DNA of 64,000 nucleotides from Bacillales bacterium UBA4682. Its GTDB lineage: Bacteria; Bacillota_I; Bacilli_A; RFN20; CAG-288. Under the pieces are notes generated by a model. That model saw nothing but the letters and a program-made list of their open reading frames with translations, did no database searches and had not been told where the DNA came from. The stretch covers positions 7,524-71,523 of the forward strand of contig DHKY01000014.1 in NCBI GenBank assembly GCA_002404995.1, in the 5' to 3' direction. A program made the position numbers and the translations under genes. Every line of letters starts with the position of its first letter. The stretch's first letter is position 1. Shown in pieces: positions 1,902-56,309 of the stretch.

Positions 1902-2126
1902 TTTGAGAAATCTTCTTTATAAAAGGTTCATGTGGTAAACTAATTATGCAGCCAACGAATCTTCAAGCTTCCGGGTTTGTGGAAGCCGACGAGCCAATCT
2001 TCTGTAATGCTATTAAGAGGATTACCCATTAGAGGTTCATAGCGATAGGTCGCTCTATCAGCTTGTCAAATGCATTCTTAAGCTGCAGACAGGAGGAAGA
2101 GTCTTTTTGCGTTCCCAAAACGCATT

Positions 2127-6602: not shown

Positions 6603-6985
6603 AAAAACAAAAATAGACCACCCAACCCTACTATTGCTAATAGGATTAAGCGGTCTTTTATTATGCTTTAGCCAATGCTTTCTTAAGTGTGTTTATACTC
6701 GCCTCGATCTGGGCATTGATCTAGGTGTCGACGTCAACAAAGTTCTTGTTGATGTAGTCCTAGAGAAGGGGTTCATCCCTAAGGTTCCTTAAGGAGCTTA
6801 GAAGAGATAAAAGACGAATTTGAGCGCATTTGTTGCCAGTCAAGACAACGAAAAAGAATGCCAACCACTCGCTTTGATTGGCGTTGCGGACAGGCTGCGA
6901 ACAATAGCGGACGGCTATGGCAGGACCTGATTTTGAGACCCTTGAGCCGATGGAGTTTCACCAGTCGGAACCGCCTTCGTTCCTA
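6603..6985 (-). ncRNA. Unclassified structured ncRNA-like element, copy 2, in inverted orientation. It has the conserved -10 GCTATAATGC, the 5' hairpin GGAACGAAGGCGGUUCC, and ends in an intrinsic terminator (~6603-6660) about 95 nt upstream of the lipoprotein gene 6509..5874.
   Basis: The reverse complement aligns with 3470..3870 over ~350 nt, with identical blocks such as CCTTAAACAGAACACAATAGAA, GGAACGAAGGCGGTTCC and TTGGCATTCTTTTTCGT. It lacks the CCA-type 3' end of copy 1. Confidence 0.45.
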
Positions 6986-42550: not shown

Positions 42551-43005
42551 ATTGATTATCTCCTTTATAAATGAATATCAAAAAGTTCATCCGGCTTTTC
42601 ATAGTAGATTCGATTTTAATAGCCAAGAACTTAAAGCTATTCAGTTTACTAAAAATAATATATTAAATCAAGGAAAGGACCAGCCGATTCTTTTGCCAAA
42701 GGGCTTTAAAAACAGGAAAAGTATCTTTACCTGTTTAATACGCCCTATGAAATATCAATCTTATCTAATTACTTGAATTTGTTCTTCTTTTGCTGACTTT
42801 AATAATCAACTATTATATTTAAGAGAAGGACAAACTATCCTATCGCTTTTATTTTTTTCTTTCAGAAGGAATCTTTTTCGAACATAATTCCTATCGCCAG
42901 AAAACAATTGTATTTTTAGCACAATTTTTCACTTAAAATGAAATTATTCTTTACTCTCTTTTTTCTATACCTATAATAATTAAAAAAAGGGGGGGTAATA
43001 TTCTC

Positions 43006-44256
43006 ATGAAGAAAAAAGGCAAAGAGATGATATTATTGGCTGTTTCAATGCCGTTATTATTAGGCAGTTCCACAGAAGAAAGCCTTCCCAAAAAAGATGA
43101 TCCATATGAAACTGCTGGTTTCATTGTTAAGAACCTTGAAAAGTTTGTTTCTGAATATAACAAATCAAAGTCTGAAAATGGTATTGATGGTCCAGACTGG
43201 CTAGCATCTTCAGTAGAAGGAACCGCTAAAGGAATAGATATTGATGATAATAGTGATTGCATATATTTAGACTTCAATAACGATAACGGGTATGCGTTAG
43301 TCAGCAAAGATTATGAGATTTTAGACAGGTCAATCAGTCGTGATCTTGAGTTTGCTAAGGATGCAGATTGTCTGTATTGGTCCTCTTATGATGGATTTGT
43401 TTATTTAGAGGAAGACGATGACAATGAAAAGCATTATGTTAGTTATGAAACTTCTTTTCTAGACAATAACGAACTGAAAGAAATTGCTTTTCAAGGATAT
43501 CTGGGGCAAGTGAAAGGATATTCGGATGGGAGCGATGGTATTGAGGATATTTCGCCTTATAGGGAGGCAAGATACGGCAAAGGATGGTCATTCTCGTCTA
43601 ATGAATCAAAAACCATCTATAATTTTCAAAATGTAAATCAAGATGATTATGCCGTTGATTTAAAAGAGGGAAACTGTACACTTTCAGCCTATTTCGGAAT
43701 TTTCCGATATTTGCATGATTATGGTGGATTCAGTCAACTTCCCATGGAGTCATCGACTATTTTCTCTATCTTGGATTCAAAAGCATCTAAAGAAGTTCCG
43801 AAAACTTATGCCCTTTTGAGAGAAAACGCGAGGCAATACGGATACACTGACGGATCTTCCGCATGGACTTCTAGGAACATGGTAGTTTGGGGACGAAAAA
43901 CATTATCCGACTTAGGATACAAAGACAAATGGTACAAAACACTTATTAAACGGTATGTTTCATGGTCATTTGGACAACAGGTTGTAAAGAATATCAATCT
44001 AGGTTATCCTGTTATGTGGAACCAGGCAAGAGGAAACTATAACTGTCATTCCATGGTTTGTAAGGGTTATAAAACTTACAAGAAAACCAGTGGTTGGTTT
44101 ATTTTCTCTCATACAGAGAAGAAACACTTCATGGTCATCAATAACAACTGGGACACCAATCGGGATTATTATATCGACTTTGATGGTTATTCATCGGACT
44201 TAGTCAATGAAGGATTCGGAACATTTACAGTAGTGAGAGACAAAGCATGGTTTTAA
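43006..44256 (+). CDS. Secreted papain-like cysteine peptidase candidate (C10/C47-like Cys...His...Asn arrangement).
   Basis: Signal peptide. Putative nucleophile KEGNCTLSAYFGIF. Putative His in NYNCHSMVCKGY. Asn/Asp in VINNNWD. An A7G7 tract lies in the RBS. Confidence 0.4.
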   Translation: MKKKGKEMILLAVSMPLLLGSSTEESLPKKDDPYETAGFIVKNLEKFVSEYNKSKSENGIDGPDWLASSVEGTAKGIDIDDNSDCIYLDFNNDNGYALVSKDYEILDRSISRDLEFAKDADCLYWSSYDGFVYLEEDDDNEKHYVSYETSFLDNNELKEIAFQGYLGQVKGYSDGSDGIEDISPYREARYGKGWSFSSNESKTIYNFQNVNQDDYAVDLKEGNCTLSAYFGIFRYLHDYGGFSQLPMESSTIFSILDSKASKEVPKTYALLRENARQYGYTDGSSAWTSRNMVVWGRKTLSDLGYKDKWYKTLIKRYVSWSFGQQVVKNINLGYPVMWNQARGNYNCHSMVCKGYKTYKKTSGWFIFSHTEKKHFMVINNNWDTNRDYYIDFDGYSSDLVNEGFGTFTVVRDKAWF

Positions 44257-48978: not shown

Positions 48979-49139
48979 CCATTGACTCTTTTCTTTCTAC
49001 GACTATAATTCTCAATCGGAAATGATGTCTTCCAGATATAGGGTCTGCCTATATCAAACCGCTTTGGATTATAAAGCTGATGACGTCTATGCTGGTTTTC
49101 AGCATAGAGGAAATCAGCTTTTTTCATAGGAGGTAGAAG

Positions 49140-50393
49140 ATGTCTATTTTCTTCACTTTGTTTCTGATTATTTTCGGAGGTGTGGTTCTTAACAAGCTGG
49201 CAAAGAGGGTTCATGTTCCTCCTCTTGTTCTGTATCTGCTTTATGGCATTCTTCTTTCTGTATTAGAAGAAAAGTTCGATTCTTCCTTTACTTTCCTCGA
49301 TTCCGGAGTCAGGAATATTTCTTCAGCTATTCGGAAGGTCGCCTTAATTATCATTCTTCTTAAAGCAGGGCTCTCTCTTAATCTATCCGATTTAAAGAAA
49401 GTTGGTAGACCAGCTATTCTAAGGTCTTTTCTTCCAGCCTGTACGGAAAGGGTAGCCGTAGGTATCTTTGGCAAGAGGATTCTGGGTTTAAGCTACACTG
49501 AGAGTTTTCTTCTTGGTTCCGTGCTTGGCGCCGTTTCTCCGGCAGTTGTCATTCCGAGGATGTCAAAACTGAGGGATGAGAAATACGGTACCGAAAAAGG
49601 AATTCCACAGCTTGTCATTGCCGGAAGCAGTATCGATGACATTATCAGGATTGTCTTTTATCAATGCTTCTTGACTAGGGAAAAAGGAGGAAGCCTTTCA
49701 GTGAGGACTTTCCTGAATATCCCCATTTCCATTGTCACAGGTGTCGGTTTGGGAATCCTTTTGGGTAGGCTCTTATCTTTTGTCTTTGATAAAGCAAAAA
49801 GGAACGATACCCTAAAACTGCTACTTCTTCTTTCCATCTGTTTCGGGCTTACTTATTTAGAAGACCTTGTCTCTCCTTATTTTGGATATTCTTCCCTTCT
49901 TTCCATCATTACCTGTGCCATTGTCCTCCATAAGAAAATAGAACCGGTATCCTTAGATCTTAAGAATAAGTTCAATGAAATCTGGTACTTAGCTGAAATC
50001 TTCCTTTTTGTCTTAGTCGGAGCGGGAATCAAGATTGAATATGCCGGCAAATTCTTCCTGCCTGCCCTTCTCCTGCTTTTGATTTCCCTTGCCTTCCGCA
50101 GCTTAGCTGTTACTGGTTGTTTAGTAAAAACCAAGCTGAACTGGAAGGAAAGAGGCTTTGTTGTCATAAGCTATCTTCCGAAAGCGACAGTCCAGGCCGC
50201 TATTGGAGGAGGATTATTGGATCTTGGGAACCAGCTTCTGGCCTCGGGAGCTGCAAATGCAGAAAGTGTCATAGCCGCAGGCACGATTGTTTTATCCGTT
50301 TCAGTCCTTGCTATTCTTCTCACTGCGCCAGCTGCAGCAATTTCAAGGAACCTTCTTTATCCCCATAGGCTGAGAAGAGAAGAGTGCAAATAG
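49140..50393 (+). CDS. Cation:proton antiporter-like membrane transporter (CPA/NhaP-like).
   Basis: About 12 transmembrane segments, 417 aa. N-terminal pattern typical of Na+/H+ exchanger family proteins. Confidence 0.55.
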   Translation: MSIFFTLFLIIFGGVVLNKLAKRVHVPPLVLYLLYGILLSVLEEKFDSSFTFLDSGVRNISSAIRKVALIIILLKAGLSLNLSDLKKVGRPAILRSFLPACTERVAVGIFGKRILGLSYTESFLLGSVLGAVSPAVVIPRMSKLRDEKYGTEKGIPQLVIAGSSIDDIIRIVFYQCFLTREKGGSLSVRTFLNIPISIVTGVGLGILLGRLLSFVFDKAKRNDTLKLLLLLSICFGLTYLEDLVSPYFGYSSLLSIITCAIVLHKKIEPVSLDLKNKFNEIWYLAEIFLFVLVGAGIKIEYAGKFFLPALLLLLISLAFRSLAVTGCLVKTKLNWKERGFVVISYLPKATVQAAIGGGLLDLGNQLLASGAANAESVIAAGTIVLSVSVLAILLTAPAAAISRNLLYPHRLRREECK

Positions 50394-50413: not shown

Positions 50414-51118
50414 CTAAGAATCTTTTTTCTTTTCCTTTTCCGCTAATTGCTTTTTCAGTTCTTCGATTTCCTTATCCTTGGCTTGCAAAGCTTCATTCTT
50501 CTTTTCATCTGTCTTTTTCTTTTTTTCAAGGAAAACGTAGGAAAAGATTCTATAGATTTCAAAGCAAAAGCCGAGCGTACAAGGAATGATGACACAAAAA
50601 GCCATTCCCTTCTTTGACGTCAGAAAAAGCATGAATTTTCCGAGAGGGAGGTTGACAGAGACAACTTTTCCAATGATTTCGCCGCTTCTTCCGTCGCTGT
50701 AAAGCACCTGGCAATCATCTTCGACCGCATCCCCTTTAACGACGTACCTAAAAGTGCCGTCTTCCATTTTCACCAGATCTTCGATGATTCGATGCGTAAC
50801 GGTTTCATTTCCGAGACTTGTATAATTGAATGTCAGGATATCTCCCTTTTTCAGGCTGGAATAGAAAGCATCACTGTTGTCATTTACTTCATCCTTGATA
50901 AGCGAACCAATAGGAATTGTCTTAATCGGATACTCACTTTGTTCTTCCCCATCCATTGAAGAAGAAATTACGACAAGGTATTGGCTGTTTCCGATTCTTC
51001 CTCCCGTCACTCTTGAGGTAATCGAAAGACCAGCAAGCAAAAGAAGCAACACCAAAAGAAAATAGAAAAGAACGTTTCCAGTGATACGGAAGAAGGTTTT
51101 GATTTTTCCTTTATTCAT
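50414..51118 (-). CDS. sipW: SipW-type (ER/archaeal-type) signal peptidase I.
   Basis: N-terminal transmembrane segment. Catalytic Ser in LVVISSSMDGEE and His in ETVTHRIIEDL, then a C-terminal transmembrane segment and a K/E-rich tail. Last gene of the operon with TasA-like genes. Confidence 0.7.
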   Translation of the reverse strand: MNKGKIKTFFRITGNVLFYFLLVLLLLLAGLSITSRVTGGRIGNSQYLVVISSSMDGEEQSEYPIKTIPIGSLIKDEVNDNSDAFYSSLKKGDILTFNYTSLGNETVTHRIIEDLVKMEDGTFRYVVKGDAVEDDCQVLYSDGRSGEIIGKVVSVNLPLGKFMLFLTSKKGMAFCVIIPCTLGFCFEIYRIFSYVFLEKKKKTDEKKNEALQAKDKEIEELKKQLAEKEKKKDS

Positions 51119-51214
51119 AATAAATTCTATTGATAATGCAGTAGCAATCGAGATCTAAGGCAATAATTTAAATAAATGAGGCAGAGAAAACTCTGCCTCA
51201 TTGCTGAAAAGACT

Positions 51215-53155
51215 TTAGCGGGTGAAAGCCTGCTTCACTCCATCAAGGTTAAAAACAACTTTGTCTGTCTTAGAGGGTCCGCCATTTCCTTCATAAGTGG
51301 AATTGCGAACGCCGAATAAGCCAGCCTTGCCATCAATTATTCCCTTTCCAAAGTTTCCAGACCAAGTCGATTTGTTGAAGTTGACAGTCCAGAGAGTATT
51401 CGGAGCCTGACCAGCAGAATTATCGAGAGAAATAACTGTATATTTCAGATCATTCTCGCTGCCAGCCTCATAAGGAGTCTCATTCGTGCTGACAAAGGTG
51501 CAGTCATTAATATCGACAATAACGCCCCTAGGTGCCTCTACATCCTTGAAAAGCTTGATTCCAGCTTTCTTTCCGGAGAAAGAGCAATTATTGAATTCGA
51601 AGTGGGTACCGGCATAAAGGTATACGTTATCGGATTCACTGATGAATTTGCAGCCATCAAAGACAGCCGAAGATCCCTCTTGTCCAGCTGCTCCGTTGGA
51701 GCCAAAGTTTTTCCTCAAGCCATTGATGGTGCAATGGTCAAAATGAAGTGAATTAGCCCGGACAAAGCCAATATTGTTGGAGCTGCCAGTTGCCATAAGG
51801 GTCCTATCTGCAAAGGAAGCATTAGCACCATTATCGAAGGCATAACTAGAAGAATCGGAAATGACAAGTTTAGAGTCTTCGCCTTTACCCTGGAATGCAA
51901 TGCGAACTCCATTGAATTTCGATCCGGCATCACCAAGGTTGAATTCGCCGGAAGGAAGGACAATTTCGTTCAAGGCATCTTTTACGATCGTAACATCCTT
52001 AAGCGAGCCGCCTTCCTGGATTTCAACGTGATTCTTCTTCTCCTGAACAACATAGTAATCACCATCCTGGACAACTTCATAGCCTTCGGCTACAAAGTTT
52101 GCAGCAACGCCGTCCGGTTCAGTCCTGGAATTCGAAGGATCATACTTATAGAAACGACCGCCTTTGACAACAATCTTTGCTGTACCAGCCGTGTAATTTT
52201 TGTCAAGACAATTCAAAGTCCACTTCGGAGTGACCGATTTGAAAGTGCCGCCGTTAATTTCGATTTCTCCTTCTTCGGCATAGATCAAATCATATTGGGA
52301 ATCCGTTCCAGTAACTTCCTGGGTATAGTAACCATCATTAATGACAATTTTTCCGCCATTAGAAACCATGACTGCCATGGCATATTTATTTGTCTCAAGA
52401 GCCGTAACTTTTCCATTGCCTTCGACAGTCAGGACAGAACCGGCCTTTTCATTCCGGATAACACCTGAGCCAGAACCGGTAATCTGTAAATTATCGATGT
52501 TCTTAACACCGTCTTTGACCGTGTAATCAGAAGTAACCGCATTGCTCTGAACCGCTTCCGTAACCAAGGAAAAAGCAAGACTGGGGTTCTCGACCTGAGT
52601 AGCGGTAGCTGGCATTTCGATAGTGAATTCGAAGCTGTCGATTGTTTTAGCAGCCGGAGAAGCCTCACTCCAGCGTCCAGTATTGAAATGCATATTGCTG
52701 GTTTCTGTAATTTTGAGCTGATTAAAGAAATCCCTGCTGGTTCCTTCGGCTAAAAGCATTTTCTGGCAATACTTAATCTTGACGGTACTATTATTGACAA
52801 TATCGACTTTCAGAACAACTTTATCACCCGGCCTCCTTTTATCAATAGAAACAACGTTTTCATCGACACTGGCGTTTCCGAAAGAAAGAGCAAGTTTCTT
52901 CTTTCCGCTATCATTCGTAAGAGTTTTCACATCCGAGTCAGCATAAGTTCCATCCATGTTGATATGTTTCAAATACGATGTGCTCTTAAGCGAAATGTTT
53001 TCTTCGACATTGACTTTTCCGGCAACAACGTTGATTTCTGCCTCAGCTTTGCTGGTAAAGAGAGCATAAGTCGCAGTCGCCGCAGCGGTTCCGAATGCAA
53101 GAGCTCCTAAAACAGATAGTAAAATACCCTTCCCTAATTTTTTTGTCTTTTTCAT
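51215..53155 (-). CDS. TasA/camelysin-like (SipW-cognate signal class) secreted protein, fused to a large C-terminal right-handed parallel beta-helix domain (646 aa).
   Basis: N-terminal LGALAFGTAAATATYALFTSKAEA matches the SipW-cognate motif (GGGTFAYFSD). The C-terminal ~350 aa show N..G...C.F/N.S beta-helix rungs (DHCTINGL, DGCKFISE, NNCSFSGK, NDCTFVST). Confidence 0.65.
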   Translation of the reverse strand: MKKTKKLGKGILLSVLGALAFGTAAATATYALFTSKAEAEINVVAGKVNVEENISLKSTSYLKHINMDGTYADSDVKTLTNDSGKKKLALSFGNASVDENVVSIDKRRPGDKVVLKVDIVNNSTVKIKYCQKMLLAEGTSRDFFNQLKITETSNMHFNTGRWSEASPAAKTIDSFEFTIEMPATATQVENPSLAFSLVTEAVQSNAVTSDYTVKDGVKNIDNLQITGSGSGVIRNEKAGSVLTVEGNGKVTALETNKYAMAVMVSNGGKIVINDGYYTQEVTGTDSQYDLIYAEEGEIEINGGTFKSVTPKWTLNCLDKNYTAGTAKIVVKGGRFYKYDPSNSRTEPDGVAANFVAEGYEVVQDGDYYVVQEKKNHVEIQEGGSLKDVTIVKDALNEIVLPSGEFNLGDAGSKFNGVRIAFQGKGEDSKLVISDSSSYAFDNGANASFADRTLMATGSSNNIGFVRANSLHFDHCTINGLRKNFGSNGAAGQEGSSAVFDGCKFISESDNVYLYAGTHFEFNNCSFSGKKAGIKLFKDVEAPRGVIVDINDCTFVSTNETPYEAGSENDLKYTVISLDNSAGQAPNTLWTVNFNKSTWSGNFGKGIIDGKAGLFGVRNSTYEGNGGPSKTDKVVFNLDGVKQAFTR

Positions 53156-53169
53156 CTTTATATTCCTTT

Positions 53170-53811
53170 CTATTTCGTCACCTGAACAACATGAACAGAG
53201 ATGTCGGCATCAAGGCTTTGGCCTTGAACAAGATTGTTTTCTTCGTCGTCAACAAACTCGAAGGAAAGCGAGAACTTCTTCTTTGCATTCTTATCGACAA
53301 TCGAATTATCCTGATCTTCCAATGAAAAATGAATCTGAGTAAGAATAGAAGCATCTTGCCCCAATTCTTTTCCATCCGCATCGTAGGCTTTCTTTGTCCT
53401 TGCAAGCTGATAGGTAAAGGCAACGTCACCCTGATTCACCAAGGTAAACTCAGCCTTTCCGCCCATCGTAGGAGCAATCTCCACCTGGGGGAACACGCTT
53501 TCCTTATATAATGACAAATCTACACCACCGATATCTTTGTCATATACGCTTTTCCCATCGGAAGTATACTTGCTCAAATCAATAGTCTTCTCGGATGGCC
53601 GTCCAGTAGACTGGTCAATTTCATCCCTTGTAAGAGACGTAAGATACAAGCCTGCCTTCACTCCCTGCCCAATAGTCAGATGAGCGTTCACCTTCTTCTG
53701 GCTTGAGAAAAGAGCATAGGTCGTACCCACGGCAGCACTAATTAAAAGCAGTGCCGCGGACCTGCTGGCAACAAATTTACTATGGAAACTAGGATTCTTC
53801 TTGTTTTCCAT
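53170..53811 (-). CDS. TasA/CalY/camelysin-like (peptidase M73 fold) SipW-cognate secreted protein (213 aa).
   Basis: AALLLISAAVGTTYALFSSQKKVNAHL is a SipW-cognate signal peptide. The size and position match tasA/calY-type fibre subunits. Confidence 0.65.
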   Translation of the reverse strand: MENKKNPSFHSKFVASRSAALLLISAAVGTTYALFSSQKKVNAHLTIGQGVKAGLYLTSLTRDEIDQSTGRPSEKTIDLSKYTSDGKSVYDKDIGGVDLSLYKESVFPQVEIAPTMGGKAEFTLVNQGDVAFTYQLARTKKAYDADGKELGQDASILTQIHFSLEDQDNSIVDKNAKKKFSLSFEFVDDEENNLVQGQSLDADISVHVVQVTK

Positions 53812-53844
53812 TTAACCTCCTTTTATATCTTTAACAGCGATTCT

Positions 53845-54405
53845 CTAGAAAAGTCGCTGAAAAAAGATCACCCTTATCTTTTCCCGGATTTCCAGGAAAA
53901 CACCATTGAGAAAAAGCAATCTTTCCCCCCAAACTTCTTCGGGGACATCCTCGGAGACCCGAAAATAGAAAGAATATTCAGTGGATTTATTTGCAGACAA
54001 AGAGGCCTTATCAATCGCCATAAGACCCCTAATATAAGAGAGGGATTTATTATCAATGATTTTTTCTTTGTCTCTGATTATTGAGACAGAAACATAAGGA
54101 TAAACGGATTCGGTCTCCTGTTTTTCAAACGAGAGGGAGACGTCAATGCTTCTGCTGACTTTGGAAACAAGCTTAATTTCCTTGCTCTTCTCTTGGCCTA
54201 ATCCAATTGTGCCAAGATTGACAGACGAAACAATCTTGTCTTCGGTTTTATCCATAACAAGAACATCATTCGAGTGGGAATTACAGAACGACAGCAAAGC
54301 GAGCGCAAAACAGAAAACAAACGTGAATATCAGAACGATAACGGCATACTTCCGTACATTCTTTTTCATTTTTATGGCTTCATGATACCCCCCCCCCGAA
54401 CCCAT
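53845..54405 (-). CDS. Membrane-anchored protein, first gene of the sipW-tasA-like operon. Its 5' end contains a G10 homopolymer (codons 3-6 if the ATG at 54405 is used; 18 nt upstream if MKKNVRK is the start).
   Basis: ATGGGTTCG-G9-TATCATGAAGCCATAAAAATGAAAAAG. MKKNVRKYAVIVLIFTFVFCFALALLSFC is a signal/anchor. Confidence 0.5.
   Translation of the reverse strand: MGSGGGYHEAIKMKKNVRKYAVIVLIFTFVFCFALALLSFCNSHSNDVLVMDKTEDKIVSSVNLGTIGLGQEKSKEIKLVSKVSRSIDVSLSFEKQETESVYPYVSVSIIRDKEKIIDNKSLSYIRGLMAIDKASLSANKSTEYSFYFRVSEDVPEEVWGERLLFLNGVFLEIREKIRVIFFQRLF
54388..54397. repeat. Poly(C)10/poly(G)10 homopolymeric tract, a candidate slipped-strand phase-variation switch.
   Basis: Only C/G homopolymer of 8 or more in the 64-kb window. 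Located at the 5' end of the fibre operon's first gene. Confidence 0.6.
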
Positions 54406-54711
54406 CTGTCAATTCTTTTTTTGTCCTTTCGGCGGCAAGTTATTTGATAAATTTTTTCTTTTTTTAATTATAAAAGCGGAAACATTCCTTGTTTTTCAGA
54501 TATTTTTAATAAAGCAACTTAATTTTTCAGAATGTAGATATCTACATAAAACTTTTAGAAATAAAATGTGTACCTTGTTTTGCTTCTTTTGCTTCATGCA
54601 GTCCATTCCTCAAGTCCAAGGAGTATTAACCCTTGGTTGGAGTCATGCGTTATACTGTCTCCCATTAATTCTGCAAACCACTGTTCTTTTCTATTTTTTG
54701 TTCAATGGAGG

Positions 54712-56133: not shown

Positions 56134-56309
56134 TCCGGCTACGAAGTCATTAAGATTGCGAAAACAAGCAAAAGCAAAAGATGATACTATAGAATTTAAT
56201 ATGCTGTTTTCCCTTTGATTTTGCTTGACAATAGTTGCAATTTAAAATATCATATTTATGTAATCGCTATCAACCTATTGAGTAGGGATCACTCAGGAAA
56301 GAGGTAAAA

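What the first reader, a model, noticed from the sequence alone, without database searches (positions are those of the whole stretch)
54370..54405. G10 homopolymer at the 5' end of the fibre operon's first gene: candidate phase-variation switch
C10 at 54388..54397 is the only G/C homopolymer of 8 nt or more in 64 kb of AT-rich sequence. On the coding strand it is ATG GGT TCG (G)9 TAT CAT..., in frame with the downstream membrane protein. If MKKNVRK is the real start, it instead lies 18 nt upstream of it. Gain or loss of one G would shift the frame from the first ATG or change the spacing and structure of the 5' UTR. This is the classic slipped-strand ON/OFF mechanism for surface structures, here positioned to control a TasA-like fibre locus.
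Basis: seen in the sequence. Interest (0 to 1): 0.7.

Follow-up and report, generated by a model that had tools for sequence, protein, structure and literature searches.

The report
Variable poly-G promoter of a fibre operon
A run of ten G's sits between the two recognition boxes of the promoter of a TasA-like surface-fibre operon in an uncultured human-gut bacterium, and its length is the only thing that differs between otherwise identical copies in different samples, so it is very probably a slippage-driven expression switch of a well-known type.

Summary
C10 at 54388-54397 (G10 on the coding strand) is the only G/C run of 8 nt or more in the window (about 0.03 expected by chance).

The proposed mechanism is only partly right. 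The tract is not coding. The orthologue in a second species starts at MKNKVRK and has no upstream ATG, so the true start is 54369.

The tract fills the spacer between a perfect -35 (TTGACA, 54412-54407) and a -10 (TATCAT, 54387-54382). Both hexamers are 6/6 conserved between the two species, while the flanking DNA is 50% identical.

Tract length varies on clonal backgrounds:
- Species 1 shows G9, G10 and G11. One contig matches the window at 6,641 positions with no mismatch except +1 G.
- Species 2 shows G7 and G9, with no mismatch over 2,082 nt except GG.
- Spacers therefore run from 17 to 20 nt.
- Three contigs break within 11 nt of the tract.

This is the porA/opc/vlp type of promoter-spacer phase variation. 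Here it controls a four-gene TasA/SipW-type accessory island in an uncultured gut Mollicutes-like member of Bacilli.

A second G-tract (53925-53930; G5, G6 or G7) changes the C-terminal frame of gene 1.

Switching rate, reversibility and the effect on expression were not tested. It is a new member of a known kind.

The parts
54407..54412 (-). -35 hexamer TTGACA
   Evidence: A perfect consensus read. It is 6/6 identical in species 2, while the 130 columns upstream are 50% identical. It is one of only three TTGACA sites in 64 kb that pair with a -10 hexamer matching at 5/6 or better.
54398..54406 (-). Non-repeat part of the promoter spacer (GATGGGTTC). It contains the spurious in-frame ATG at 54405-54403.
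   Evidence: In species 2 this stretch reads GAAAAGTTCC, so the ATG is not conserved.
54388..54397 (-). Poly-G tract (G10 in the window), the variable part of the spacer. The spacer is 19 nt in the window.
   Evidence: Alleles seen: G9 (L010), G10 (window, L002, L009) and G11 (L001, L022) in species 1; G7 (L008) and G9 (L007) in species 2. It is the only difference on clonal backgrounds.
54382..54387 (-). -10 hexamer TATCAT
   Evidence: Matches TATAAT at 5 of 6 positions, including T1, A2 and T6. It is 6/6 identical in species 2. The same hexamer pair with a 17-nt spacer precedes the neighbouring lipoprotein gene at 56225 (+).
54370..54381 (-). 12 nt between the -10 hexamer and the ATG. This implies a leader of about 5-6 nt with no Shine-Dalgarno sequence.
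   Evidence: The distance is 11 nt in species 2. Most other genes in the window have AGGAGG-type SD sequences. The transcription start is inferred, not mapped.
53845..54369 (-). Gene 1: a 174-aa protein with an N-terminal hydrophobic helix and a beta-rich remainder. It is the first gene of the operon and its function is unknown.
   Evidence: Its start is fixed by the orthologue P0002. It is conserved with the operon in three lineages. It has no Pfam or NCBIfam match. Profile similarity to the TasA-like family is weak (hhalign 50%, E = 1.6e-4).
53925..53930 (-). Second G-tract (G6 in the window) inside the 3' end of gene 1. It sets the C-terminal reading frame.
   Evidence: G5 in L010, L017 and L018 gives the 164-aa frame that is conserved with species 2 and L025. 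G6 in the window, L001, L002 and L003 gives the 174-aa frame. G7 in L009 gives a third frame.
53170..53811 (-). TasA/camelysin-family fibre protein, 213 aa, with a strong SD sequence
51215..53155 (-). 646-aa secreted protein that shares the TasA-type N-terminal signal (ATYALFTS)
   Evidence: It has no family match.
51175..51202 (-). Terminator-like hairpin between the 646-aa gene and the peptidase gene
   Evidence: A 12-bp stem followed by a T-rich tail.
50414..51118 (-). SipW-type signal peptidase I, 234 aa
   Evidence: NF046067 (SipW) E = 3.1e-16 and TIGR02228 E = 6e-11. Both scores are below the curated equivalog cut-offs.

Best explanation
The G-tract is the variable part of the spacer of a sigma-70/sigma-A-type promoter. 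The layout is TTGACA, then 9 fixed nt plus G(n), then TATCAT, then 12 nt, then the ATG. This promoter drives a TasA-like fibre operon: gene 1, a 213-aa TasA-family protein, a 646-aa secreted protein and, probably by read-through, a SipW-type peptidase.

Slipped-strand mispairing during replication adds or removes G's. That changes the distance between -35 and -10, and their rotational phasing, one base pair at a time. Promoter strength and hence fibre production would then vary heritably but reversibly among cells of one clone.

With the usual 17 +/- 1 nt optimum, G8 in species 1 and G7 in species 2 would be the strongest state. The G10 and G11 alleles seen most often (19-20 nt spacers) would be weak or OFF.

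Shown here: the position of the tract, the conservation of the promoter elements, the true start codon, and length polymorphism on clonal backgrounds in two species.

Inferred: that these hexamers are the working promoter, which lengths are ON, and that switching is fast and reversible.
For: 1. Anatomy. A perfect -35 and a 5/6 -10 flank the tract with a 19-nt spacer.

2. Conservation. In a species whose gene 1 is 61% identical and whose fibre protein is 82% identical, both hexamers are 6/6 conserved and a G-tract fills the same place. The 130 columns upstream and the stretch from -10 to the ATG are each only 50% identical.

3. Start codon. The orthologue begins at the residue aligned with Met13 of the long ORF, and the upstream ATG is absent there. 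The tract is therefore upstream of translation.

4. Hypermutability.
- L001 matches the window with no mismatch over 6,641 nt except +1 G in this tract.
- L022 does the same over 1,588 nt.
- Of 45 homopolymers of 5 nt or more in that 6.6 kb, only this one differs.
- In species 2, L007 and L008 come from unrelated SRA runs and have no mismatch over 2,082 nt except a GG indel in the tract.
- About 17 kb of clonal comparison in species 1 shows no substitutions.

5. Allele range. The alleles are G9, G10 and G11 in species 1 and G7 and G9 in species 2, giving spacers of 17-20 nt that straddle the functional range.

6. Assembly breaks. Three contigs from three samples end or begin within 11 nt of the tract (L017, L018, L022).

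7. No competing promoter. No other promoter-like site on this strand lies in the 300-nt intergenic region. The same hexamer pair at 17-nt spacing serves the adjacent lipoprotein gene.

8. Precedent. The porA poly-G tract lies between -35 and -10, with 11G high, 10G about 2-fold lower and 9G about 13-fold lower (PMC3639595). Other precedents are the M. hyorhinis vlp poly-A promoter tract, the M. mycoides Vmm promoter-spacer repeat (PMC10502178) and the Bordetella fim C-stretch (PMC1891110).
Against: - There are no transcript, transcription-start or expression data.
- The two commonest alleles give 19-20 nt spacers, which would be poor promoters. Either the locus is mostly OFF in the gut, or the optimum here is not 17 nt, or the hexamers are not used as assumed.
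- The -10 hexamer is only 12 nt from the ATG and there is no SD sequence. That requires a near-leaderless mRNA in an organism that otherwise uses strong SD sequences.
- Tract lengths come from assembled short-read consensus, some at 2-5x coverage, and G-homopolymers are prone to sequencing error.
- Several species-1 samples have neighbouring ENA accession numbers and may not be independent.
- Within-sample heterogeneity and reversibility were not observed.
Confidence: 0.7

Rival explanations
1. Translational ON/OFF switch. The gene starts at the upstream ATG (54405), the tract encodes Gly codons, and gain or loss of one G shifts the reading frame.
For: With G10 the ATG at 54405 is in frame, giving a 186-aa ORF. 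Gene callers annotated that form in some assemblies.
Against: - The ATG is absent in species 2, and the orthologue starts at MKNKVRK.
- Identity between the species is 83% downstream of 54369 and 50% upstream of it.
- The nearest SD-like sequence is 18 nt from that ATG.
- The G9 and G11 alleles leave the 174-aa ORF untouched.
- The ATG lies between the -35 and -10 hexamers.
Confidence: 0.03
2. The tract is transcribed as part of a longer 5' leader from a promoter further upstream, or by read-through from the YjbR gene. Its length then tunes translation or mRNA stability, for example as an SD-like G-run or through a small upstream ORF.
For: - Gene 1 has no canonical SD sequence.
- No terminator-like site was found between the YjbR gene and the tract.
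- The G-run is followed 4 nt later by an ATG, within TATCATG, in both species.
Against: - The G-run is 18 nt from the real ATG, too far to act as its SD sequence.
- The small ORF that starts in TATCATG is 3 codons long in species 1 and about 34 codons long in species 2, in a different frame, so it is not conserved.
- The region folds no better than shuffled sequence (z = +1.37; 186 of 200 shuffles fold at least as well), and there is no Rfam match.
- This model does not explain why exactly TTGACA and TATCAT are the conserved blocks.
Confidence: 0.1
3. There is no regulatory role. The length differences are sequencing or assembly errors at a difficult homopolymer, or neutral slippage at a tract that happens to lie there.
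For: - Some contigs have 2-5x coverage.
- Contigs break at the tract, which can reflect poor read quality.
- There are no read-level data.
Against: - G11 is seen in a 14.6x contig and again in a second sample.
- The species-2 alleles differ by 2 nt between unrelated runs.
- None of the other 44 homopolymers in the 6.6 kb region differs.
- An uninterrupted G-tract is kept at the same promoter position in two species whose surrounding intergenic DNA is 50% identical. Neutral decay would not be expected to leave that.
Confidence: 0.12

Closest known systems
Neisseria meningitidis porA (poly-G) and opc (poly-C) promoter-spacer phase variation
   Same: A G/C homopolymer of about 9-13 nt lies between the -35 and -10 hexamers of the promoter of a surface-protein gene. 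Single-base slippage grades or switches transcription (PMC3639595). The tract composition, length range and position are essentially the same as here.
   Different: Those are outer-membrane proteins of a Gram-negative pathogen, with measured expression levels and switching. Here the organism is an uncultured gut Mollicutes-like member of Bacilli, the target is a four-gene TasA/SipW fibre operon, the leader is near-absent, and nothing has been measured.
Mycoplasma hyorhinis vlp (poly-A) and M. mycoides Vmm (TA repeat) promoter tracts
   Same: These are Mollicutes, phylogenetically the nearest precedent. Insertions and deletions in a repeat within the promoter or promoter spacer switch transcription of surface proteins ON and OFF (PMC10502178).
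   Different: Those tracts are A or TA repeats that control single lipoprotein genes. Here a G-tract controls an operon for a secreted fibre.
Bordetella pertussis fim2/fim3/fimX 'C-stretch' promoters
   Same: A G/C homopolymer in the promoter of a fimbrial (fibre) subunit gene is polymorphic among strains and alters transcript abundance (PMC1891110).
   Different: In Bordetella the tract sets the distance between an activator (BvgA) site and the -10 box. Here a canonical -35 hexamer is present and no activator is implied.
Bacillus subtilis tapA-sipW-tasA operon
   Same: The cargo matches: a TasA-family protein plus a dedicated SipW-type signal peptidase plus a small accessory first gene.
   Different: To my knowledge the B. 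subtilis operon is controlled by repressors (SinR, AbrB) and not by a repeat tract, and the literature search found no link between TasA/SipW and phase variation. The gene order differs, and there is an extra 646-aa protein. Gene 1 has no detectable similarity to TapA.
C-terminal sequence switching by homopolymers (Helicobacter canadensis)
   Same: A short G/C tract near the 3' end of a gene changes the C-terminal frame instead of abolishing the protein (title of PMC2823697, listed). This resembles the G5/G6/G7 tract at 53925-53930.
   Different: Here the tract is short (5-7 nt). Most of the variation separates strain lineages, and the only within-clone variant (G7) comes from a 2.9x contig.

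Membership tests
SSR-mediated transcriptional phase variation (promoter-spacer homopolymer, porA/opc/vlp type) | An uninterrupted simple-sequence repeat long enough for slippage | tested here: met
   G10 in the window, and G7-G11 across the alleles. It is the only G/C run of 8 nt or more in 64 kb.
SSR-mediated transcriptional phase variation (promoter-spacer homopolymer, porA/opc/vlp type) | [quoted passage not shown] | tested here: met
   The layout is TTGACA, 19 nt, TATCAT, with both hexamers 6/6 conserved in a second species against 50% identity in the flanks. This rests on sequence and conservation only. The transcription start is not mapped.
SSR-mediated transcriptional phase variation (promoter-spacer homopolymer, porA/opc/vlp type) | Tract length is polymorphic within an otherwise clonal lineage | tested here: met
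   Species 1: no mismatch over 6,641 nt and over 1,588 nt apart from +1 G. Species 2: no mismatch over 2,082 nt apart from GG. These are differences between samples. Heterogeneity within a sample was not seen.
SSR-mediated transcriptional phase variation (promoter-spacer homopolymer, porA/opc/vlp type) | A high switching rate and reversibility, the 'twin traits' of phase variation (PMC11868660) | not testable with these tools
   This needs read-level data, single-colony lineages or a fluctuation assay. The organism is uncultured.
SSR-mediated transcriptional phase variation (promoter-spacer homopolymer, porA/opc/vlp type) | Expression changes with tract length | not testable with these tools
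   The observed spacers of 17-20 nt span the range where sigma-70-type promoters lose activity. That is inference from established promoter biology. No measurement was made.
Translational (intragenic) SSR phase variation | The repeat lies inside the translated reading frame, downstream of the genuine start codon | tested here: not met
   For the G10 tract, the genuine start is 54369. The upstream ATG is not conserved, and the orthologue starts at the aligned Met. The separate G6 tract at 53925-53930 is intragenic, but it alters only the last 11 residues of the conserved 164-aa frame.
TasA/camelysin (Pfam Peptidase_M73) fibre proteins | Sequence membership in the family | tested here: met
   The window protein scores just below the Pfam cut-off (21.2 against 22.5 bits). 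However, 34 of its 56 relatives match PF12389, and the family profile hits the TasA structures 5OF1 and 8AUR at E = 1e-5 and 3.5e-5.
TasA/camelysin (Pfam Peptidase_M73) fibre proteins | A TasA-like fold | tested here: inconclusive
TasA/camelysin (Pfam Peptidase_M73) fibre proteins | A dedicated SipW-type signal peptidase in the locus, and a matching N-terminal signal | tested here: met
   The 234-aa protein matches only the SipW and archaeal-type signal peptidase I models (E = 3.1e-16 and 6e-11), both below the equivalog cut-offs. The 213-aa and 646-aa proteins share the (T/A)TYALF(S/T)S signal motif.
TasA/camelysin (Pfam Peptidase_M73) fibre proteins | The protein assembles into extracellular fibres | not testable with these tools
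   This needs expression and microscopy.

The most novel reading that the evidence does not exclude
The locus could be a two-tract combinatorial switch that is a family-wide feature of TasA-type fibre islands in uncultured gut Mollicutes-like Bacilli. A homopolymer in the promoter spacer would set the transcription level. This tract is poly-G in two species. In a third, AT-rich lineage (L025) a poly-T run of at least 15 nt abuts the TATAAT box. A second tract at the 3' end of gene 1 would switch that gene's C-terminal isoform and move its stop codon to 62, 33 or 19 nt from the fibre gene's start. That could modulate translational coupling into the fibre gene, all from a near-leaderless first cistron.
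Probability: 0.15. Interest if true: 0.6.

Novelty: new member of a known kind. Interest (0 to 1): 0.5.

Why it matters
Repeat-mediated phase variation has been worked out almost entirely in cultured pathogens such as Neisseria, Haemophilus, Campylobacter, Bordetella and Mycoplasma. For gut commensals the documented switches are mainly invertible promoters and epigenetic switches.

This case is a clean, comparatively supported repeat-driven promoter switch in an uncultured human-gut lineage, recovered from metagenome assemblies alone. It controls a TasA/SipW-type fibre, a class of surface structure not previously linked to phase variation in the literature I could search.

The finding implies that these reduced-genome gut bacteria hedge expression of a surface fibre that is itself an accessory island, present in two species and absent at the same site in two relatives. 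That fits pressure from host immunity or phage.

There are two practical consequences:
- Assemblies tend to break at the tract.
- Gene callers flip between a 186-aa and a 174-aa model depending on tract length.

Tried and rejected
- **JGI metagenome scans.** Two scans found nothing: one with a variable-gap promoter pattern and one with the fibre protein. They gave no extra tract lengths.
- **Species-representative genomes.** A scan with the fibre protein found no relative. The locus is absent from the representatives, so the organism was placed through the neighbouring exchanger gene instead.
- **Family-wide locus survey.** The wider fibre-family alignments A4 and A5 were too diverse for the locus finder, so no survey of promoters across the family was possible.
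- **More distant fibre loci.** Of the two looked up, L024 had only 73 nt of upstream sequence. L025 starts inside a poly-T run, which is suggestive only.
- **Exact-protein look-ups.** All 12 are used. Four near-identical places were collapsed by the tool and could not be read.
- **Structure and fold searches.**
  - A single-sequence PDB search for the fibre protein found nothing.
  - Foldseek gave only generic beta-sandwich matches.
  - The gene 1 model failed (pLDDT 39), so gene 1 remains uncharacterised.
- **Structured-leader or riboswitch idea.** Rejected, because the fold is no better than shuffles and there is no Rfam hit.
- **G-quadruplex.** Considered and dismissed from the sequence alone: a single G-run cannot form an intramolecular quadruplex.
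- **Palindrome at 54547-54532.** Considered as an operator. It is not conserved in species 2.

Full report
**1. The observation**

On the + strand, C10 occupies 54388-54397. On the coding (-) strand the sequence reads ...GAATTGACAGATGGGTTC-G10-TATCATGAAGCCATAAAAATGAAAAAG....

The window is 41.9% G+C. This is its only G/C homopolymer of 8 nt or more. The next longest are one G7 and two C6 runs. A first-order model expects about 0.03 G/C runs of 10 nt or more in 64 kb, and 2 of 300 third-order Markov simulations reached 10.

ATG(54405)-GGT-TCG-(G)9-TAT is in frame with the downstream ORF (186 aa). The tract also ends 18 nt before the MKKNVRK ATG at 54369.

**2. Which start codon is real**

Only one distant orthologue of gene 1 exists among 5.8 billion proteins: P0002, at 61% identity. 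Its Met1 aligns with Met13 of the 186-aa ORF (MKNKVRKYAVI against MKKNVRKYAVI).

In that species the DNA at the position of the upstream ATG reads AAAAGTTCC. Identity between the two species is 83% just downstream of 54369 and 50% just upstream.

Gene callers give a 186-aa protein when the tract is G10 and a 174-aa protein when it is G11. The 12-residue extension is therefore an artefact of tract length. The true start is 54369, and the tract is not coding.

**3. What the tract sits in**

Immediately 5' of the tract is a perfect TTGACA (54412-54407). Immediately 3' is TATCAT (54387-54382). The spacer between them is 9 fixed nt plus G10, 19 nt in all.

The consensus scanner allows only 16-18 nt spacers, so it could not report this site. 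It did report the same two hexamers at 17-nt spacing in front of the neighbouring 955-aa lipoprotein gene (sequence).

Only three sites in 64 kb combine a perfect TTGACA with a -10 hexamer matching at 5/6 or better, at any spacer from 14 to 22 nt. Two of them are these promoters.

In species 2 the block ATTGACAGA...GTTC(C)-G(n)-TATCATG is conserved, with both hexamers 6/6 identical. The 130 columns upstream and the stretch between -10 and the ATG are each 50% identical.

The -10 hexamer is 12 nt from the ATG in species 1 and 11 nt in species 2. There is no Shine-Dalgarno sequence, although most genes in the window have AGGAGG-type sites. The inferred mRNA therefore has a leader of only about 5-6 nt. 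This is inference, because no transcription start was mapped.

The region has no RNA structure beyond chance (z = +1.37) and no Rfam match.

**4. Does the tract vary?**

Exact-protein look-ups recovered the locus from other assemblies.

*Species 1*

| Contig and sample | Tract | Notes |
|---|---|---|
| window | G10 | |
| L002 (ERZ26858363) | G10 | |
| L009 (ERZ26859173) | G10 | |
| L001 (ERZ26858509) | G11 | 14.6x coverage |
| L022 (ERZ26859182) | G11 | |
| L010 (ERZ26859183) | G9 | a slightly divergent strain |

*Species 2*

| Contig and sample | Tract |
|---|---|
| L007 (SRR9018564) | G9 |
| L008 (SRR30770044) | G7 |

Across both species the spacers are 17, 18, 19 and 20 nt.

The backgrounds are clonal:
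- L001 matches the window with no mismatch over 6,641 nt apart from +1 G in the tract.
- L022 does the same over 1,588 nt.
- L007 and L008 have no mismatch over 2,082 nt apart from GG in the tract.
- Of the 45 homopolymers of 5 nt or more in the 6.6-kb comparison, only this one differs.
- About 17 kb of clonal species-1 comparisons contain no substitution.

Three contigs from three samples start or stop within 11 nt of the tract (L017, L018, L022). That fits either mixed lengths or poor reads at the tract.

Several caveats apply. These are consensus sequences, some at 2-5x coverage. Several samples have adjacent ENA accession numbers and may be related. No read-level data were available.

**5. 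What it controls**

The operon on the - strand has four genes.

- **Gene 1 (53845-54369).** A small protein with one N-terminal hydrophobic helix. It has no family match. It travels with the operon in three lineages. Its similarity to the TasA-like family is weak (hhalign 50%). Its AF2 model failed.
- **A 213-aa TasA/camelysin-family protein.**
  - Its Pfam score is just below the cut-off.
  - 34 of 56 relatives match PF12389.
  - The family profile hits the TasA structures 5OF1 and 8AUR at about 1e-5.
  - The model has pLDDT 91.
  - The fold searches are compatible with TasA but not specific.
- **A 646-aa secreted protein.** It has the same ...YALF(S/T)S signal motif.
- **A SipW-type signal peptidase.** It follows a terminator-like hairpin.

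**6. Organism and context**

The adjacent Na+/H+ exchanger gene is 92% identical to genes in two human-gut MAGs, 'uncultured Mollicutes bacterium UMGS1247' and 'Bacilli bacterium HGM10888'. One of the contigs comes from a Hadza gut metagenome.

In those two relatives the exchanger gene is followed directly by the YjbR gene and the lipoprotein gene. The four-gene fibre operon is missing at exactly this site. It is also absent from all 185,579 species-representative genomes. The operon is therefore an accessory island, as contingency loci often are.

**7. Mechanism and rivals**

The best explanation is slipped-strand changes in a promoter-spacer homopolymer that grade or switch transcription (confidence 0.7). 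By the usual 17 +/- 1 nt rule, G8 in species 1 and G7 in species 2 would be strongest, and the common G10 and G11 alleles weak or OFF. That assignment is inference. Poly(dG) tracts may also shift the optimum.

The rivals are:
- A translational frameshift from the upstream ATG (0.03), which the comparative data contradict.
- A transcribed leader element (0.10), which lacks conserved structure or a conserved small ORF and does not explain the hexamer conservation.
- An artefact or neutral slippage (0.12), which is hard to reconcile with a 2-nt difference between unrelated runs, replication of G11 in two samples, and retention of the tract in two species.

**8. Comparison with known systems**

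The anatomy matches N. meningitidis porA, which has a poly-G tract between -35 and -10 with graded 11G, 10G and 9G expression (PMC3639595). It also matches the Mollicutes precedents vlp and Vmm (PMC10502178) and resembles the Bordetella fimbrial C-stretch promoters (PMC1891110).

Of the defining features of SSR phase variation, three are met here: the repeat itself, its position in the promoter spacer, and polymorphism on a clonal background. Two could not be tested: switching rate with reversibility (PMC11868660), and the effect on expression.

No paper in the searched library links TasA/SipW loci to phase variation or describes this in RF39-like gut Mollicutes.

My verdict is a new member of a known kind, and it deserves moderate interest.

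**9. A second tract**

A G6 run inside the 3' end of gene 1 (53925-53930) is G5 in a sister strain lineage (L010, L017, L018). G5 gives the 164-aa frame that is conserved with species 2 and with a more distant homologue.

The window strain's G6 is a +1 frameshift that replaces the last 11 residues with 21 others. One low-coverage contig has G7, which gives a third frame.

The gap between the gene 1 stop codon and the fibre gene's ATG is 62, 33 or 19 nt respectively. Whether this is phase variation or a fixed strain difference is open.

Noticed in passing
window 53925-53930 (- strand), inside gene 1: A second G-tract is G5, G6 or G7 in different assemblies and changes the C-terminal reading frame of gene 1, giving 164, 174 or 179 aa counted from MKKN. 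The window's G6 state is frameshifted relative to the frame conserved in species 2 and in L025. The stop codon then lies 62, 33 or 19 nt from the fibre gene's ATG.
   Followed up: partly
L025 1-62 (Logan SRR31068210): In a more distant, AT-rich relative whose fibre protein is 47% identical, the contig begins with a poly-T run of at least 15 nt. That run is directly followed by ATT-TATAAT, 36 nt before a gene-1-like ORF. This may be the same homopolymer-next-to-the--10-box design built with a different base. The -35 side is off the contig.
   Followed up: partly
window 50414-54412 compared with L019 5053-5815 and L020: The whole four-gene fibre operon is absent at the same site (between the Na+/H+ exchanger gene and the YjbR gene) in two related gut MAGs, UMGS1247 and HGM10888. 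L019 has about 760 nt of unrelated DNA there. Part of that DNA is the reverse complement of the first 56 nt of L007, upstream of the species-2 promoter.
   Followed up: partly
L002 (ERZ26858363), corresponding to window ~52960 and ~51925: Deletions of 11 nt and 18 nt lie in the 646-aa gene of an otherwise identical contig at 4.6x coverage. The first deletion splits the gene into 68 + 565 aa. This could be real loss of function or an assembly error.
   Followed up: no
window 49009-49096 (+): A fluoride riboswitch (RF01734, 43.1 bits against a gathering score of 34) lies directly upstream of the Na_H_Exchanger-family gene at 49140-50393. It is conserved in L019 and L007.
   Followed up: partly
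window 1952-2082 (+): A strong match to the Rfam family 'Staphylococcus-1 RNA' (RF03112; 109.9 bits against a gathering score of 87.7), in a gut Mollicutes-like genome.
   Followed up: no
window 42982-42995 (+): An A7G7 run lies 10 nt upstream of the ATG of the 416-aa gene at 43006. The G7, the second-longest G/C run in the window, sits where the Shine-Dalgarno sequence should be. It could be a second slippage-prone expression site. No other assemblies of this region were examined.
   Followed up: no
window 54532-54547: A perfect 16-bp palindrome, ATGTAGATATCTACAT, lies about 120 nt upstream of the -35 hexamer in the intergenic region. It is not conserved in species 2.
   Followed up: partly
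L017 and L018 (first bases), L022 (last bases): Three contigs from three different metagenome assemblies start or end within 11 nt of the poly-G tract. The tract is a recurrent assembly breakpoint.
   Followed up: yes
window 56225-56253 (+): The neighbouring 955-aa lipoprotein gene, which has an InlB B-repeat domain, has the same TTGACA/TATCAT hexamer pair at the canonical 17-nt spacing. It has a normal leader of about 55 nt with an SD sequence. It serves as a fixed-spacer comparison for the variable promoter.
   Followed up: yes
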